Source: Escherichia coli
GTDB lineage: Bacteria; Pseudomonadota; Gammaproteobacteria; Enterobacterales; Enterobacteriaceae
DNA length: 64,000 bases
Direction: 5' to 3' (one strand)
Assembly: GCF_009931435.1 (NCBI RefSeq)
Contig: NZ_CP043414.1
Shown: one piece after another, positions 1-6,000 of the stretch
Position numbering within the stretch: position 1 is the stretch's first letter
Layout of the letters: the number at the start of each line of letters is the position of its first letter
Made by a program: the position numbers

Positions 1-3000
1 TCCCCTCCGCCAGTGCCTGGACCTCCGTGGCAGGCAGCGTCACTTGCCAGGTTCCGTCGCTACCGACGGTTGCTGAATGGCTTTTCCCGTTGACGGTCAG
101 GGTTACGGTTTGCCCCGCTTCTGCATTCGAAGTGCCGCTCAGTACCAGCGCGGCGTTATGTTCCGCAGCACTGACGATGTTGTCCTGAGCGATAGTGTTG
201 ATGGCAAGCGTTGGCGGTTGGGTATCGACCGTTAGCAGCTGCGCGCCAGTGACCGTATTGCCTGTGGCGTCTTTCCCACTGACCAGCACCGCCTGATTCC
301 CTTCGCCTAACGCCTGTGCATCGGCGGTCGGCACCTGCACGCTCCAGGCACCGTTAGCGCCTACGCTGGTGGTGTAGGTTTTGCCGTTTAGCGTAACGGT
401 GAGTTCTGTTCCCTGCGCCAGATGGCTACTGGTGCCAGAAAGCGTAAACCCGGCGGCCTGTTCGCTGGCGTTAATAATGTTATCGCCTGCGGTGGTGGCA
501 ACCTGCACGCTGGCCTGACTATTGTCGATGGTTAACGTTATCGAACCGGCGTCAGTGATGGTACTGCCGACAATTTGCACCACTGACCAGGTATGTTCAC
601 CTGCACTTTGCGTGGGTAACGAGACACTCCACTGACCGTTGTTGTCTACCTGAGTACTGGCAATAGTATTGCCGTTACTGTCTTTAATCTGAATAGTCGC
701 CCCCGCCTGCCCGCTGCCGCTAAAGGTTGGCGTGGTATCATCGGTGATGTCATTGGTGGCGAGAATGCCGCGCTGATCGCCCTGATTATCGGTAACTAAA
801 AATGATGGTGTGGCGTTGCCAGGCTCAGCGGGTGGCGTAGGGTTATTAATCACTTCCGTTTTCGAGTCGCCATCACCACCGCTTGCCAGCAGTGCACCAA
901 GCGCACCACCACCTACCGCCGCCCCCGCCAGCCAACCCCACGGGAAGGCGCTGGTCTGAGCAACAGTATCAAGAAATGGCGCAATGCTTTCAATCGCAGT
1001 GGTCTGGGCAGTCAGTTCTACGGGGGCTAATCCACCCACAGCAGTATCGGCGAAGGTGACATGGGTTAGCTGTTGCCCATCGGCAAACACCAGTTCCGAT
1101 TGTTCAGCTGTATTCGCCGCTTGCAGGAAATAACCGTTGCAGCGGATCACCGTGCCGTCCTGCATATAGATCAGCAGGTCATTTCCTTCACGGACGTAAC
1201 GCGCAACGGCAGAGGCCTGAGCATGAACCTGCACCACGGAGGGCTCATAAATGACAACCGTAACGTCGCCAGGATTAATCAGCGTTTGTTTGACGGATGT
1301 TTTTCGCGAAATAACATCAATAATCAGGCTCATAATGGCATTCCTGATAAATGGCGCATATCCTTAGCGAGTCCATTTATCTAAATAAGACAAAGGTAAT
1401 CACTTAACAACGATGCATACCTGATATTAATAATGGCAGGATTATTTCAAGTCGGGTAAGTCGTTGTATAAGCCCTGTTTAATTCCCGCTAATGGAATAA
1501 GGTTATTCACCGCAGCGGCATAATTTACGGCGGCGACCCAGCCATCATAATTGGCATTTATTTCAGCCGATTGCGCCTGAAAGACATCTTGCTCGACGGT
1601 TAATAGATCATTCAGGCTGCGTTTGCCCAATTTATATTCATTTTGGTACACATCTCGCGTTTTGTGCGCACTTTCGGATTGTGCTAAACCGGCTTCTTCG
1701 CGACCCCGTGCGCCGGTCCAGTTCGCATATGCCACAGACGCTCGTTGCAGCACATCCAGTTTTGCCTGTTCGACCTGCGAGGCAGAGATTTTTTATTGCC
1801 CTTCAGCCTGTTGCACCTGGGCTGAAACTGCGCCGCCCTGATACAGCGGCGCGTTAACGTTCAGTTGTAACTGGTCGTCCCAGTACGAGCGGTCGCTGGT
1901 CTGGTAGCGCGTTTTGCCGCCCTGAATACTGAGCGTCGGCCAGTATTGCGCTTTCGTTTTTTCCACGCCGTACTGTGCAGACTGGCGTAAGTTTTCTGCC
2001 GCCAGTACCAGCGGGATGGACTGGTAATCAATATTTTTCAACGATACCGGCTGCTCGGCTAATTCAGCAGGTGGCTCGGCTATCGCCTCCGGTTGGACGC
2101 CAGTGAGCACCGCCAGTTGCGCTTTGGCGCTCGCCATCTGCGCTTGATATTGCTCCAGCGTTGAGCGCATTCCGGCAATACGCGTCTGGGCCTGTAATTC
2201 ATCCGACGATGAGTTCAGGCCAGCGTTAGCGCGCAGCGCCGCCATGTTGTAGACGTTTTCCAGCGAGTGGATATTGCGTTGAGCCGCATCGCACAACGCC
2301 TGATAACGACTGACCTCCATATAGGCAGTCGCCGTTTTTTCGGCAACATCGGTTAAAGTTGCCATCAATTTAAAGCGGTAGCTGTCACGAGCGGCGGTTT
2401 GCAGTTTGATATCGTTATCTGTTTTACCGAAGTCATACACCAGCTGTGTCAGGGTTATGCCATACGAAACGTTGTTATCAAGCCTGCCGCTGGAGTCCGT
2501 TTGTCGGGACGGCCCCGCGTTGCCGGTTAATCCAACGTGCGGATACCAGGCACTTTTGGCTTCATCAATTTGTGCTTCGCCAATACCTATCTGCGCCGCC
2601 TGTTGAGTGACGTCGGGATTTCGCGCAAAGGCGCGTAATATACTTTCCTGTAAAGATAATCGGGCAACTGGCGTTACCGCTGGGGCGTTCGCCCATTGTG
2701 GCAGCGGTGCAGCAATTGTAGCTTCTCCCATCACAATAAAACTTATTAAAAAAATAAACCCATTATTTTTACGGCTTTTAAACTGGAATCGCGCCATAGA
2801 TAAGTCACTTCCTTCCAGGTCATTATTTTAACTGGTTTTTATAACCAGTCTCATTTTATTAAGAAGGGTAATAACTTGTGCACCTCTTTTGTCGAACATT
2901 GAGATTGGAAAAGAAATGCAGTTAAAAAGCTTATACGTTATTTATTTAGAATACACTACGACTTTTAGATTACCATCATACGCATTAAGAATAATCCACA

Positions 3001-6000
3001 GCAATAAGTGATTAGCATCACAGATTTATCGCGTATATATCATTTTTTTGTGACTTATTTATTAAAGGAATAAGAAAGGAAATTTGAATTAAAGACAAAG
3101 GCGCAGTACAGAAAGTACTGCGCCCAAAGAGGTTTTATACGGCTTTATTGCGCTTCATGACCATTGCCACAATAAGGCTGAGTAAGAGCGCGCCAATAAT
3201 CCATATCAGCGCACGACTGCCCTGGGACCACAGACTGTAGATGAAGCCAACGATCACCAACAACATAACCAACGTGCCAACGATAAGAATCGGCAACGAG
3301 GCATGGATATCATGACGCAGGCGGATCGCCACCACAAACACCGCCAGGTAGCAGATCAAAAAGGTGGCACTGGCAACGCTGGCGAGTGAGCCTAAATTTA
3401 GCGCCGCCGTCATCAGCATAATCAACACCACGACGATGATGTTGCCCCAGGTACTCTGCCGCCACAGAGATTTATTCATTAGCTTCGGCAGTTCGCGTTC
3501 GCTTCCCATGTTGTCCATGATGTTAAACACGGCGAACAGGTTCGCGTTGATGGCTGAAGCCGTCGCCAGTAAAGCACCGATGACAACGATCACATAACCC
3601 ACATGCCCGAGGAGCGGAGATGCGGCCTGCGCTACGGCGGTATCGGCATATTTTTCTAACTCTAATGCCGATACATCGCTAAGCAGTACCAGCGCCAGCG
3701 CGATGTAAAGCAGTGTGGTAACGCCAATCGCCACCAGAAACGCCCGTGGCATAATGACCGCCGGATCTTTCACTTTATCCGCCGCGTTCGCCATCATGCC
3801 AAAGCCCGCATAGGCAAGGAAGGTTATCCCGATACAGGAGAAGAACGCACCGGAGCTGGGAGGCGCAGAGACGGAAATATGCGCCGGTTGTAGCGACCAG
3901 ACACCGGCAATAATCAGCAATAACAGGATCATCATTTTAATGCCGACGAGGATCACTTCCAGCCGCCCTACCGCATGGTTGCTTAAGGAGTTGAAAAGCG
4001 TCATCACCGCAATGATCCCCAACGCGTAGAGCAGAATAAGGTGCTCCTCCTGGCTGCCTTCATGCAAAAACTGCACGGCATAAGCGCCAAAAGCACGGGC
4101 GACCATGGCGATGCTTACCGCCAGCGTCAACAGGTACAGTAACGAGAGCGCCAGCGAAAAGACGCCGTTGCCTAATCCGCGACGAAAGAAGTCGATAATA
4201 CCGCCATTGCTGGGATAGCTCGCCCCCAGACGCGCATAGGCATAACCAGAAAACATCGCCACAATACCACCAAAAGCAAAGGCGACCCAGGTCGAGGCTT
4301 CCATTAGCAACGCAGCCTGCCCCAGCAGCGCGAAGATCCCCGCCCCCACCATTGCCCCAATGCCAATGGAAACGACGTTCCATAGACCGAGGGGTTTGTT
4401 ACCGTTATTACCTTCCGTGTTCATCATGATCAGCCCTTAAACACGTTATAGCCGAGTTGATTAGCGACCGATGCCACCATTTTTTGACCGCGAACACTGT
4501 TGCCTTCTTCGTCCAGTGGTGGTGAAAACGCGGCAATTCCCATCACGCCAGGGACAACCGCCAGAATACCGCCACCTACACCGCTTTTGCCCGGTAAACC
4601 AACGCGATATGCCCAGTCACCGGAGCGACCATACAGCCCTTCCATCATCATTTCGGCCAGAATGCACGGCACGTTGTCGGCCTGAAGAACGCGTTTATGC
4701 GTCAGCGGATTCACACCACCCGCCGCCAGCGTCGCGCCAAGCGTTGCCAGTTCAATAGTATTGAGGAGCGTGGAGCACTGACGGGTATACACGTCACAGG
4801 CTTCCATTGCATCACAATAGAGATATCCGGCGGAGTACAGCAGCCAGGCTATGGCCCGGTTATGGAAGTTGGTTGTTTGTTCCGACTGGTTGACTTCATC
4901 AGAGAGCGCTACCTGCTCACCAGCCAGTTGTTGTTGGATATGTAAAATTCGCTGCCAGCGTTGTTCAGTATTTTCAGCGTTAATCAGGCTGGTGGTGGCA
5001 ATAGCGCCAGCATTTACCAGTGGCGAAAGCGGTTTGCCGCCATGCAACTCTAAGGCGATAACGGAGTTAAAGGGCAATCCGGTCGGGTCAGCGCCAACTT
5101 TGTCCTGTACCGCCTGCGGGCCGACATCTTCTAACGCAAGGGCTAACGTACAGACTTTTGAGATGGATTCCAGCGCAAAGCGGTAATCACTGTCACCCGC
5201 GCTAAAGACTTTACCATCGCAGGTCACGATAGCCACTGCCGCCAGTTGACTGGGCACATTCGCCAGAAAGGGAATGTAATCGGCATTTTGTCCGCCGTTA
5301 AGTGAGTGAAATTGGGTGTAAGCCTGATCCACTGCCTGCTGTAATGTGTTTGCATCTAACATCTTTTGTTAACTCCTTTTTATAGATGCGGGAGGGGATT
5401 CCTCACCCCGGTGCCGATTTTCAGGCATCCTGATTTAACTTAGCACCCGCGACTTAACTACAGGAAAACAAAGAGATAAATGTCTAATCCTGATGCAAAT
5501 TGAGCCGATTTTTTAATCTTTACGGACTTTTACCCGCCTGGTTTATTAATTTCTTGACCTTCCCCTTGCTGGAAGGTTTAACCTTTATCACAGCCAGTCA
5601 AAACTGTCTCAAAGGAGTACGTTATGTCACAAACTATCGACCTGACCCTGGACGGCCTGTCCTGCGGTCACTGCGTTAAACGCGTGAAAGAAAGTCTCGA
5701 ACAGCGCCCGGATGTTGAACAGGCGGATGTGTCTGTCACTGAAGCGCACGTTACCGGGACTGCCAGTGCAGAACAGCTGATCGAAACCATCAAACAAGCG
5801 GGTTATGACGCATCTGTAAGCCACCCAAAGGCTAAACCGCTGGCGGAGTCATCAATCCCGTCGGAAGCACTGACAGCGGTTTCTGAGGCGCTTCCGGCAG
5901 CGACCGCCGATGACGATGACAGCCAGCAGTTGCTGCTGAGCGGCATGAGCTGCGCCAGCTGTGTCACCCGCGTACAAAATGCGCTGCAAAGCGTACCGGG

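What the first reader, a model, noticed from the sequence alone, without database searches (positions are those of the whole stretch)
2798..3134. AT-rich 337-bp region between the ybaT terminator and the T1SS OMP gene, probably the island promoter
Strongly AT-rich with phased A/T tracts (for example ttatttagaatacactacgacttttagatt, atcatttttttgtgacttatttattaaagg), immediately after the ybaT hairpin terminator at ~3100-3130. This looks like the junction between core and island and a likely H-NS-type silenced promoter for the OMP-adhesin operon.
Basis: inference. Interest (0 to 1): 0.3.

Follow-up and report, generated by a model that had tools for sequence, protein, structure and literature searches.

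The report
Promoter and leader of OI-28 adhesin operon
This AT-rich 337-bp spacer is the already-studied promoter and 5' leader of the first gene (tolC28) of the E. coli O-island 28 secretion/adhesin operon. It is ordinary as a promoter, is active in stationary phase rather than silent, and sits beside a deletion scar, not an insertion site.

Summary
Window 2798-3134 is the most AT-rich 337-bp tile of the 64-kb window (GC 0.32 against 0.52). It lies between the ybaT terminator (3099-3125, minus strand) and the ATG (2797) of a TolC-family gene. The "phased A/T tracts" are not supported.

The region is the regulatory region of tolC28 (z0608), first gene of O-island 28 of EHEC O157:H7. It is 95-96% identical and gap-free against EDL933. 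Published EDL933 Cappable-seq puts a transcription start at the position equal to window 2941, with -10 TATTCT at 2953-2948 and a 144-nt leader. That start is 15- to 30-fold stronger in stationary phase. A minor start maps to 2923. No island gene downstream of tolC28 has a start of its own. Published work also shows 55-fold RpoS dependence, a working lacZ fusion and RstA binding at a box equal to 3078-3091.

So "island promoter" is supported. "H-NS-silenced" is untested, and literal silence is contradicted. The K-12 homology break lies at 3106|3107, inside the terminator stem, where K-12 is fused to the last 98 nt of hlyD28. K-12 therefore carries a deletion. The island is syntenic in two other Escherichia lineages.

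New but modest: a conserved CRP-like site, a predicted SD-sequestering leader, and a nonsense codon in tolC28 here. Already known; low interest.

The parts
3135..4427 (-). ybaT (APC-family permease) coding sequence; upstream core gene, for context
   Evidence: ORF list; annotated as ybaT in matching E. coli records
3099..3125 (-). ybaT intrinsic terminator hairpin (11-bp stem, 5-nt loop), followed by the U-tract UUUGUCUUUAAUU down to about 3086
   Evidence: Terminator scan; RNA fold -20.9 kcal/mol, z = -6.4; stem conserved in 8 Escherichia sequences
3106..3107 (.). End of homology with K-12-type genomes. It is a deletion breakpoint inside the 3' arm of the terminator; in K-12 it is fused to the last ~98 nt of hlyD28.
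   Evidence: Megablast matches of island-free genomes start at query 508, which is window 3107; alignments
3078..3091 (-). Copy of the published RstA box. Here it reads TAATTCAAATTTCC; O157 has TAATTCAAATTACC. It is centred about -143.5 from P1 and overlaps the terminator U-tract.
   Evidence: PMC12758282: box at -294 to -280, and deleting it abolishes the EMSA shift. Coordinates read. Polymorphic within E. coli and not conserved in E1V33 or E. whittamii. No match with 3 or fewer mismatches to the K-12 RstA consensus in the spacer.
3055..3068 (-). Invariant upstream block CCTTTAATAAATAA (-127 to -114); function unknown
   Evidence: 8-sequence alignment
3007..3022 (-). CRP-like site TGTGA-N6-TCACT (9 of 10 core bases), centred at -73.5 from P1. 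The half-sites are invariant while the spacer differs between lineages (GCTA against TTCT in its middle).
   Evidence: Pattern search; alignments. Inferred only; not tested experimentally.
2970..2979 (-). Invariant block ATGATGGTAA over the -35 region of P1 (-38 to -29). The best -35 hexamer, ATGGTA, matches only 3 of 6 at a 17-bp spacing.
   Evidence: BPROM -35 'ATGATG' in PMC12758282
2948..2953 (-). P1 -10 hexamer TATTCT (-12 to -7): 5 of 6 to the sigma-S-type TATACT, 4 of 6 to TATAAT
   Evidence: Position relative to the mapped start; invariant block AGTCGTAGTGTATTC
2941..2941 (-). P1 transcription start (A), by gap-free homology to EDL933 Cappable-seq start 579751, 144 nt upstream of the ATG
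   Evidence: PMC10469882 Table S5 and read scores; coordinate mapping
2923..2935 (-). Minor promoter P2: -10 TATAAG (2935-2930) and start at A2923 (EDL933 579769, seen only in stationary M9)
   Evidence: block ACGTATAAGCTTTT is invariant
2798..2941 (-). 144-nt 5' leader of tolC28. Predicted helix A pairs 2920-2910 with 2889-2879 around a hypervariable 20-nt loop. Helix B pairs 2877-2862 (anti-SD, CCUUCU) with 2816-2802 (SD region). Hairpin C spans 2850-2830.
   Evidence: MFE -38.4 kcal/mol, z = -2.9; consensus fold; helix probabilities of about 0.9; no compensatory changes
2808..2816 (-). Shine-Dalgarno-like GGAAGGAAG, 11-19 nt upstream of the ATG
   Evidence: Read from the sequence; invariant in the alignment
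1442..2797 (-). [quoted passage not shown]
   Evidence: Translation and alignment with RMDEC465 and O157
3075..3075 (+). Position equal to a minor antisense start (EDL933 579617, minus strand of that record), which reads back into the ybaT terminator
   Evidence: PMC10469882 supplementary file 7

Best explanation
Window 2798-3134 is the transcriptional and translational control region of tolC28 (z0608). This is the first gene of the O-island 28 operon tolC28-rtxA28-rtxB28-hlyB28-hlyD28, which encodes a type I secretion system and its giant adhesins. Read on the minus strand, transcription of the core genes glsA-ybaT ends at a strong intrinsic terminator (3125-3099). RNA polymerase then starts again at A2941 from a promoter with -10 TATTCT and a poor -35. 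This promoter is nearly off in exponential LB, strongly on in stationary phase, and RpoS-dependent. A minor start lies at A2923. Upstream inputs are the published RstA box (3091-3078) and, by inference, cAMP-CRP at a conserved site centred at -73.5. The 144-nt leader is predicted to fold so that CCUUCU pairs with the GGAAGG of the ribosome-binding site, which would damp translation; this step is inferred. Shown, in the O157 homologue: start position, growth-phase induction, RpoS dependence, reporter activity, RstA binding. Inferred here: transfer of those results to this 95-96% identical copy, sigma-S as the direct holoenzyme, CRP, and the leader structure.
For: Identity and synteny with OI-28. 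EDL933 Cappable-seq start 579751 equals window 2941 through a gap-free 301/301-position match, checked base by base. Read scores were 0 / 4.1 / 0 / 2.4 in exponential and 64.7 / 53.0 / 31.3 / 9.2 in stationary cultures, against about 3 for the ybaT start. Genes 2780-2795 have no gene-specific start. Z0608 is 55-fold and Z0609 20-fold higher in wild type than in an rpoS mutant. The tolC28 upstream region drives lacZ and is RstA-dependent by ChIP-qPCR and EMSA. The spacer is 82% identical to E1V33 and E. whittamii, while fourfold-degenerate sites of ybaT and glsA are 62-68% identical. Invariant blocks sit exactly on -38..-29, -22..-8, the P2 -10, the CRP half-sites and the leader helices. Leader fold z = -2.9, helix probabilities about 0.9.
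Against: No start has been mapped in this strain. Its RstA box carries an A-to-T change, and its tolC28 has a premature stop, so the operon may be non-functional here. The RstA box lies about 143 bp upstream of P1, is a poor match to the K-12 consensus (5 of 12 specified bases mismatched; 6 in this copy) and is not conserved outside E. coli. One CRP-core match is about what chance gives per 64 kb (1.85 expected), so its support rests on location and conservation. The leader structure has no compensatory substitutions. SD occlusion is not significantly stronger than in shuffled leaders (10% of shuffles are equal or lower). RpoS dependence could be indirect. The consensus promoter scan missed P1 and called two sites inside the leader where no start was detected.
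Confidence: 0.85

Rival explanations
1. One reading: an H-NS-type silenced promoter on horizontally acquired DNA. H-NS would polymerise on the AT-rich, curved spacer and keep the adhesin operon off until an anti-silencer acts.
For: About 300 bp at 71% A+T is the composition H-NS prefers. There is an 8 of 10 match to TCGATAAATT at 3023-3032. Expression is nil in exponential LB. From established knowledge, many sigma-S promoters such as hdeAB and csgBA owe their sigma-S selectivity to H-NS repression of the sigma-70 holoenzyme, so a milder form of this view is compatible with the data.
Against: The promoter is strongly active in plain stationary-phase LB and M9, so it is not silent in vitro. There is no 10-11-bp A-tract phasing. 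Two-mismatch H-NS motif hits occur 91 times in the window, so this one carries no information. The island body has GC 0.57-0.60 and is vertically inherited, so it is not AT-rich foreign DNA. The OI-28 paper does not mention H-NS, and the Sakai H-NS ChIP paper's supplements held as text have no entry for the locus.
Confidence: 0.2
2. There is no autonomous promoter of consequence. tolC28 and the island would be expressed mainly by read-through from the RpoS/GadX-controlled glsA-ybaT operon, and the spacer would be just a leaky terminator plus filler.
For: All genes from glsA to cueR are co-oriented. The RpoS ratios fall smoothly: ybaT 70, Z0608 55, Z0609 20. The U-tract is interrupted.
Against: A primary (capped) 5' end lies inside the spacer, about 20 times stronger than the ybaT start. 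A 320-bp fragment drives lacZ on its own. The terminator hairpin is strong, at -20.9 kcal/mol. The spacer is under purifying selection, with conserved blocks on promoter elements.
Confidence: 0.07
3. RstA is the principal driver from a different, unmapped promoter closer to the RstA box, used in DMEM with Ca2+ or in the host. P1 would be a separate stationary-phase promoter.
For: RstA dependence and box-dependent EMSA. The distance from the box to P1 (about 143 bp) is long for an OmpR-family activator (established knowledge). Cappable-seq was not done in DMEM.
Against: No start was detected between 3078 and 2941 in eight conditions. The box is poorly conserved and is a weak consensus match. 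The rstA effects are only 3- to 5-fold.
Confidence: 0.15

Closest known systems
Regulatory region of tolC28 (z0608), O-island 28 of EHEC O157:H7 EDL933 (PMC12758282; start-site atlas PMC10469882)
   Same: Same locus between ybaT and the TolC-family gene, the same 337-bp length, 95-96% identity without gaps, the same -10, start positions, CRP-like site and leader.
   Different: The RstA box has T instead of A at position 12, a variant shared with strain M00057. tolC28 carries a nonsense codon in this genome. The flanking core DNA belongs to a different E. coli lineage.
Sigma-S-dependent stationary-phase promoters of E. coli (for example hdeAB, csgBA, osmY)
   Same: A -10 close to TATACT, a weak -35, an A/T-rich discriminator and surroundings, stationary-phase induction, and large RpoS dependence.
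   Different: No C at -13 (it is G here). Direct transcription by the sigma-S holoenzyme has not been shown. H-NS involvement, typical of that group, is untested.
Class I CRP-dependent promoters (lac at -61.5, malT at -70.5; from established knowledge)
   Same: A 9 of 10 match to TGTGA-N6-TCACA on the upstream face, centred near -72.5, with half-sites conserved across Escherichia lineages.
   Different: The centre is at -73.5, one base off the canonical register. There are no binding or genetic data. Detection in glucose M9 exponential culture does not obviously fit cAMP control.
SPI-4 siiA-F promoter of Salmonella (type I secretion system plus giant adhesin SiiE; from my own knowledge and PMC6272769, title and abstract only)
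   Same: A single upstream control region for an operon encoding a type I secretion system and a giant Ig-repeat adhesin. NCBI names the E. coli adhesin 'BapA-related adhesin SiiEA'.
   Different: Different gene order, chromosomal site and regulators (HilA and SprB there, by recall). No sequence similarity of the control regions was sought or seen.

Membership tests
Bacterial sigma-70-family promoter (P1 of tolC28) | An experimentally mapped primary 5' end | not testable with these tools
   Not measured in this strain. In the 96% identical, gap-free EDL933 homologue, Cappable-seq places a start at 579751, which equals window 2941, in 6 of 8 conditions.
Bacterial sigma-70-family promoter (P1 of tolC28) | A -10 hexamer at about -12 to -7 with A at position 2 and T at position 6 | tested here: met
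   TATTCT at 2953-2948 lies exactly at -12..-7 and is invariant in 7 of 8 sequences (E. whittamii has an insertion next to it).
Bacterial sigma-70-family promoter (P1 of tolC28) | A recognisable -35 hexamer 16-18 bp upstream | tested here: not met
   The best candidate is ATGGTA, 3 of 6, at 17 bp. The consensus scan did not call P1. This fits an activator- or sigma-S-dependent promoter.
Sigma-S (RpoS)-dependent promoter | Expression lost in an rpoS mutant and induced in stationary phase | not testable with these tools
   Literature on O157: Z0608 is 55-fold higher in wild type than in rpoS; start-site read score 0 in exponential LB against 64.7 in stationary LB. Whether the dependence is direct is unknown.
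Sigma-S (RpoS)-dependent promoter | -10 of type TCTATACTTAA with C at -13 | tested here: inconclusive
   TGTATTCTAAA matches 8 of 11, including C at -8 and the A/T-rich discriminator, but -13 is G.
H-NS-silenced (xenogeneic) promoter | AT-rich relative to the genome | tested here: met
   GC 0.29-0.32 against 0.52, the lowest tile in the window.
H-NS-silenced (xenogeneic) promoter | Intrinsic curvature or helically phased A-tracts | tested here: not met
   No 10-11.5-bp AA/TT periodicity (P = 0.85).
H-NS-silenced (xenogeneic) promoter | A high-affinity nucleation motif (TCGATAAATT) | tested here: inconclusive
   One 8 of 10 match at 3023-3032. There are 91 such matches in the window against 57 expected, so a single hit is uninformative.
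H-NS-silenced (xenogeneic) promoter | Located on recently acquired, AT-rich foreign DNA | tested here: not met
   The island body has GC 0.57-0.60. It is collinear in E1V33 and E. whittamii and as diverged there as the flanking genes. K-12 retains an hlyD28 remnant.
H-NS-silenced (xenogeneic) promoter | Silent in laboratory culture, derepressed in an hns mutant, and bound by H-NS in ChIP | not testable with these tools
   Not silent in stationary phase. No hns or ChIP data were found for the locus.
Genomic-island insertion junction | A sharp end of homology with island-free genomes | tested here: met
   Homology with K-12-type genomes ends at 3106|3107.
Genomic-island insertion junction | An intact empty site in island-free genomes (with tRNA or att repeats, or an integrase) | tested here: not met
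   K-12 lacks the 3' arm and U-tract of the ybaT terminator and carries the frameshifted last 98 nt of hlyD28, so it holds a deletion. The hlyD28 stop overlaps the cueR start in O157.
Intrinsic (Rho-independent) terminator | A GC-rich hairpin followed by a U-tract directly after a stop codon | tested here: met
   11-bp stem with 7 G-C pairs, -20.9 kcal/mol, z = -6.4, tail UUUGUCUUU; it starts 9 nt after the ybaT stop.
CRP (cAMP receptor protein) class I site | A TGTGA-N6-TCACA core centred near -61.5, -72.5 or -82.5 | tested here: inconclusive
   9 of 10 core bases, centred at -73.5, with half-sites invariant in 8 sequences. However, 1.85 such matches are expected by chance per 64 kb, and there are no binding data.
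RstA-activated promoter | An RstA box (K-12 consensus TACATNTNGTTACA) that binds RstA | tested here: inconclusive
   No hit with 3 or fewer mismatches in the spacer. The published box TAATTCAAATTACC bound RstA in O157. The copy here has one further change, and the box is not conserved outside E. coli.
Cis-regulatory leader that sequesters the ribosome-binding site | A stable, conserved helix pairing the SD with an upstream anti-SD, supported by covariation | tested here: inconclusive
   A 14-bp helix with probability about 0.9 and both arms invariant. There are 0 compensatory pairs. SD occlusion is not significant against shuffles (P about 0.10), and no melting is predicted between 20 and 45 C. 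No Rfam family matches.

The most novel reading that the evidence does not exclude
Two readings go beyond the published picture. First, the tolC28 control region may be a conserved multi-input switch: a CRP site at -73.5, a sigma-S-type core promoter, and a 144-nt leader whose anti-SD helix gates translation through a trans-acting factor such as a small RNA or CsrA (two GGA motifs lie on the SD). Second, 'O-island 28' may be an ancestral Escherichia locus rather than an acquired island. It would have been lost from about 81% of E. coli by one deletion that also removed half of the ybaT terminator and moved the cueR start, and it would be decaying independently in many remaining carriers.
Probability: 0.3. 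Interest if true: 0.4.

Novelty: already known. Interest (0 to 1): 0.18.

Why it matters
The operon encodes a type I secretion system and giant adhesins that a 2025 study reports are needed for early EHEC adherence and colonisation. Knowing where and when it is transcribed matters for that biology. Combining the published start-site atlas, the RpoS array and cross-species alignment gives a sharper picture than the BPROM-only model in that paper: a stationary-phase, RpoS-dependent promoter with a long structured leader.

It also changes the evolutionary story. OI-28 looks like an old Escherichia locus that most E. coli have deleted and others are inactivating, not a recent acquisition. For this window the practical point is small: the region is a normal, already-described promoter, and the first gene it drives is broken in this strain.

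Tried and rejected
- **Rfam:** a scan of 2500-3400 on both strands at E <= 1 gave only a spurious sub-threshold hit.
- **A/T-tract phasing:** the 10-11.5-bp periodicity test was negative.
- **H-NS motif:** the search was uninformative.
- **RstA consensus:** no hit in the spacer.
- **Consensus promoter scan:** it called two sites inside the leader (2882-2853 and 2854-2825) where EDL933 has no start, and it missed the real P1.
- **Small ORFs in the spacer (20-40 aa):** rejected. The 23-aa ORF at 2828-2899 changes frame across a 1-nt indel in E1V33 and E. whittamii, and its internal ATG is ACG in O157.
- **The 7-5-7 inverted repeat at 2831-2849 as a repressor operator:** less likely than an RNA hairpin. 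Six of seven substitutions keep G-U pairing on the transcribed strand only, but one strain has an A-C mismatch and there are no double changes.
- **RNA thermometer:** helix probabilities are flat from 20 to 45 C.
- **Repeat or mobile element:** rejected. The spacer is single-copy, with a median of one place per genome among the 958 complete genomes that carry it.
- **H-NS evidence in the literature:** two searches and one supplement look-up found nothing for this locus.
- **Species of origin:** an early suspicion that the window comes from a non-coli Escherichia was dropped. Identity to K-12 is 97% over ybaT-glsA-copA, and only the last ~190 nt of ybaT are 92.8%.

Full report
**1. What is in the sequence**

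Window 2798-3134 is the complete spacer between two minus-strand genes. ybaT occupies 3135-4427. A TolC-family outer-membrane gene starts at ATG 2797.

The spacer has GC 0.318, or 0.292 without the terminator, against 0.517 for the window. It is the deepest AT trough in all 64 kb: only 0.17% of 337-bp tiles are as low, and all of them overlap it. The next trough, the acrB-tomB spacer, reaches 0.323. The value is therefore extreme but within the range of core intergenic DNA.

- The ybaT terminator is real. It has an 11-bp stem at 3125-3099 on the minus strand, -20.9 kcal/mol, z = -6.4, followed by UUUGUCUUUAAUU.
- "Phased" A/T tracts are not supported. AA/TT power in the 10-11.5-bp band is below the simulated mean (0.35 against 0.65, P = 0.85).

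**2. Identity of the locus**

The spacer and both flanking genes match 958 of 5,426 complete E. coli genomes, at one copy per genome (median), with no annotated feature under the spacer. Annotated neighbours in O157:H7 and strain RMDEC465 run glsA, ybaT, TolC-family OMP, "BapA-related adhesin SiiEA" / Ig-like giant protein, type I secretion ATPase, HlyD adaptor, cueR. All are co-oriented.

This is O-island 28 (OI-28) of EHEC O157:H7, with genes tolC28 (z0608), rtxA28, rtxB28, hlyB28 and hlyD28 (PMC12758282). Only the first 2.8 kb of the island lies in the window. The window itself is E. coli: 97% identical to K-12 across ybaT-glsA-copA.

**3. The promoter**

- **Reporter and RstA data (PMC12758282).** The 320 bp upstream of tolC28 drive lacZ. 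Activity and island mRNA fall 3- to 5-fold in an rstA mutant. RstA is enriched by ChIP-qPCR and shifts the fragment in EMSA unless the box TAATTCAAATTACC (-294 to -280) is removed. The core promoter in that paper was only a BPROM prediction.
- **Cappable-seq atlas of EDL933 (PMC10469882).** For gene 2775 (CDS 579895-581250, which is tolC28) the atlas lists a gene-specific start at 579751. It was found in 6 of 8 conditions. A second start at 579769 was found only in stationary M9.
- **Growth-phase pattern.** Read scores for 579751 are 0 / 4.1 / 0 / 2.4 in exponential LB, M9, acid and salt. In the matching stationary cultures they are 64.7 / 53.0 / 31.3 / 9.2. The ybaT start scores about 3.
- **One promoter region for the operon.** Genes 2780-2795, the rest of the island, have no gene-specific start in that table.
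- **Mapping to the window.** The window spacer aligns to EDL933 579594-579894 over 301 positions without gaps, so window = 2797 + (579895 - x). P1 starts at A2941, with TATTCT (2953-2948) at exactly -12..-7. P2 starts at A2923, with TATAAG (2935-2930). I checked both on the EDL933 sequence.
- **Promoter type.** P1 has no good -35; the best hexamer is ATGGTA at 17 bp. Its extended -10, TGTATTCTAAA, resembles the sigma-S type. This fits the RpoS array, where Z0608 is 55-fold and Z0609 20-fold higher in wild type than in an rpoS mutant.
- **A caution on scans.** The simple consensus scan missed P1 and proposed two sites inside the leader.

**4. Conservation**

A scan of one genome per species found the same glsA-ybaT-spacer-tolC28 arrangement in Escherichia sp. 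E1V33 and E. whittamii.

In an 8-sequence alignment the spacer is 82% identical between the window and those two lineages. Fourfold-degenerate sites of ybaT and glsA are only 62-68% identical. The spacer is therefore constrained.

Invariant blocks fall on these positions:
- the terminator stem;
- CCTTTAATAAATAA (-127..-114);
- GATATATA (-100..-93);
- TGGATTATT (-57..-49);
- ATGATGGTAA (-38..-29);
- AGTCGTAGTGTATTC (-22..-8);
- the P2 -10;
- most of the leader down to the ATG.

A CRP-like site, TGTGA-N6-TCACT (3007-3022), is centred at -73.5. Its half-sites are invariant while its spacer differs between lineages. One such match per 64 kb is about what chance gives (1.85 expected), so this is a hypothesis supported by position and conservation only.

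The RstA box is polymorphic within E. coli: TTTCC here and in strain M00057, TTACC in O157. It is not conserved in the other lineages. It matches the K-12 RstA consensus poorly, and no hit with 3 or fewer mismatches exists in the spacer.

**5. The leader**

The 144-nt leader plus 30 nt of coding sequence folds to -38.4 kcal/mol (z = -2.9). The consensus fold has three elements:
- **Helix A:** 2920-2910 pairs with 2889-2879, around a 20-nt loop that is completely different in E1V33 and E. whittamii.
- **Helix B:** 14 bp, in which AAGUUAUU..CCUUCU (2877-2862) pairs with GGAAGG.AGUGACUU (2816-2802). This covers the Shine-Dalgarno region. Probability is about 0.9.
- **Hairpin C:** 2850-2830.

Support is thermodynamic plus conservation only. 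There are no compensatory pairs. Occlusion of the SD is not significantly greater than with shuffled upstream sequence (P about 0.10), and no melting is predicted between 20 and 45 C. No Rfam family matches. I treat translational damping by this leader as an inference.

**6. The "junction"**

Island-free genomes, about 81% of the collection, match the window only from position 3107 onward. Alignment shows that K-12 keeps the 5' arm, the loop and three bases of the 3' arm of the ybaT terminator. These are fused to roughly 98 nt that are about 96% identical to the 3' end of hlyD28, with a 1-nt frameshift. NCBI's annotation pipeline marks that stretch as a pseudogene remnant.

Further points bear on the origin of the island:
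- In O157 the hlyD28 stop overlaps the cueR start.
- The island body has GC 0.57-0.60.
- The island is collinear in E1V33 and E. whittamii at 87-89% identity, the same as the flanking core genes.

The K-12 state is therefore a deletion of an old Escherichia locus, not an empty insertion site. The AT-rich spacer is an ordinary promoter region rather than a compositional scar of foreign DNA.

**7. H-NS**

Nothing I could run or find supports silencing.
- The promoter is active in stationary-phase laboratory media.
- There is no curvature signal.
- The single motif match is uninformative.
- The island body is GC-rich.
- I found no H-NS, Hha or hns-mutant data for this locus.

A 300-bp stretch at 71% A+T could still bind H-NS. 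From established knowledge of sigma-S promoters, H-NS might contribute to the exponential-phase off state. I put literal "silencing" at about 0.2.

**8. This strain**

tolC28 carries CAA to TAA at codon 335 (window 1793-1795) relative to RMDEC465 and O157, so the first gene behind this promoter is truncated here. Other carriers also show damage:
- a tolC28 frameshift in strain DA33137;
- an hlyB28 frameshift in RMDEC465;
- an IS1 inserted in leader hairpin C in strain ECNB21-M121;
- a 613-bp deletion from the start-site region into tolC28 in strain SCPM-O-B-8794;
- a fragmented tolC28 in E. whittamii.

**9. Verdict**

The promoter interpretation is right and already documented for the O157 homologue. 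The junction is at the far edge of the interval and is a deletion scar. H-NS silencing is unsupported. The CRP-like site, the structured leader and the ancestral-locus reading are new but modest and partly inferential. Novelty: already known. Interest: low.

Noticed in passing
window 1793-1795 (minus strand): tolC28 has a premature TAA at codon 335 of 451 (CAA in RMDEC465 and O157). The outer-membrane component of the secretion system is truncated in this strain.
   Followed up: yes
L001 2901-2998 (K-12) against L004 6342-6440 (O157); window 3106|3107: The K-12 cueR-ybaT spacer is the frameshifted last ~98 nt of hlyD28 fused into the ybaT terminator stem. About 81% of complete E. coli genomes share this breakpoint, which points to one old deletion of OI-28. 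K-12 ybaT thereby lost the 3' arm and U-tract of its terminator.
   Followed up: partly
L015, L003, L016 (about 1760-2528), L008 (about 3000), L007: The locus is inactivated in several different ways in carriers. These are a tolC28 frameshift (DA33137), an hlyB28 frameshift (RMDEC465), and an IS1 in the leader hairpin with a TGGTTATAA target duplication (window 2839-2847). There is also a 613-bp deletion joining window 2934 to 2320 (SCPM-O-B-8794) and a fragmented tolC28 in E. whittamii.
   Followed up: partly
L006 (Escherichia sp. E1V33) and L007 (E. whittamii), whole loci: glsA-ybaT-spacer-tolC28-adhesin is collinear with the window at 87-89% identity, the same as the flanking core genes. 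This suggests vertical inheritance of 'O-island 28' within Escherichia.
   Followed up: partly
window 37923-37938: A perfect CRP core, TGTGATCTTCATCACA, lies about 80 nt upstream of the 183-aa ORF at 38017-38568. I take that ORF to be maa, and the site to lie between hha and maa, from K-12 gene order recalled rather than checked.
   Followed up: no
window 36716-37136: The second-deepest AT trough of the window (GC 0.323), just downstream of the 1049-aa ORF ending at 36680. I take this to be the acrB-tomB spacer by recall of K-12 gene order.
   Followed up: no
window 8129-8556: The copA-ybaP spacer lacks ybaQ (a HigA-family antitoxin gene) that O157 carries there. RMDEC465 lacks it too.
   Followed up: no
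window 3075 (plus strand): EDL933 Cappable-seq lists a weak antisense start (579617) equal to this position. It reads back through the ybaT terminator and was seen in one condition only.
   Followed up: no
L004 about 6345-6505 (O157) and L001 about 2904-2925 (K-12): The start-site atlas gives cueR a 160-nt leader in EDL933, starting inside hlyD28, but 19 nt in K-12. The island deletion appears to have changed which cueR promoter is used.
   Followed up: no
window 3107-3300: The last ~190 nt of ybaT are only 92.8% identical to K-12, against 97% for the rest of ybaT-glsA-copA. Island-carrying and island-free haplotypes seem to be anciently diverged next to the breakpoint.
   Followed up: no
L005 (JAIJJM010000516.1): A 2.3-kb contig filed as a 'Collinsella sp.' metagenome-assembled genome is 95-99% identical to the E. 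coli ybaT-tolC28 region. It is probably a binning contaminant.
   Followed up: no
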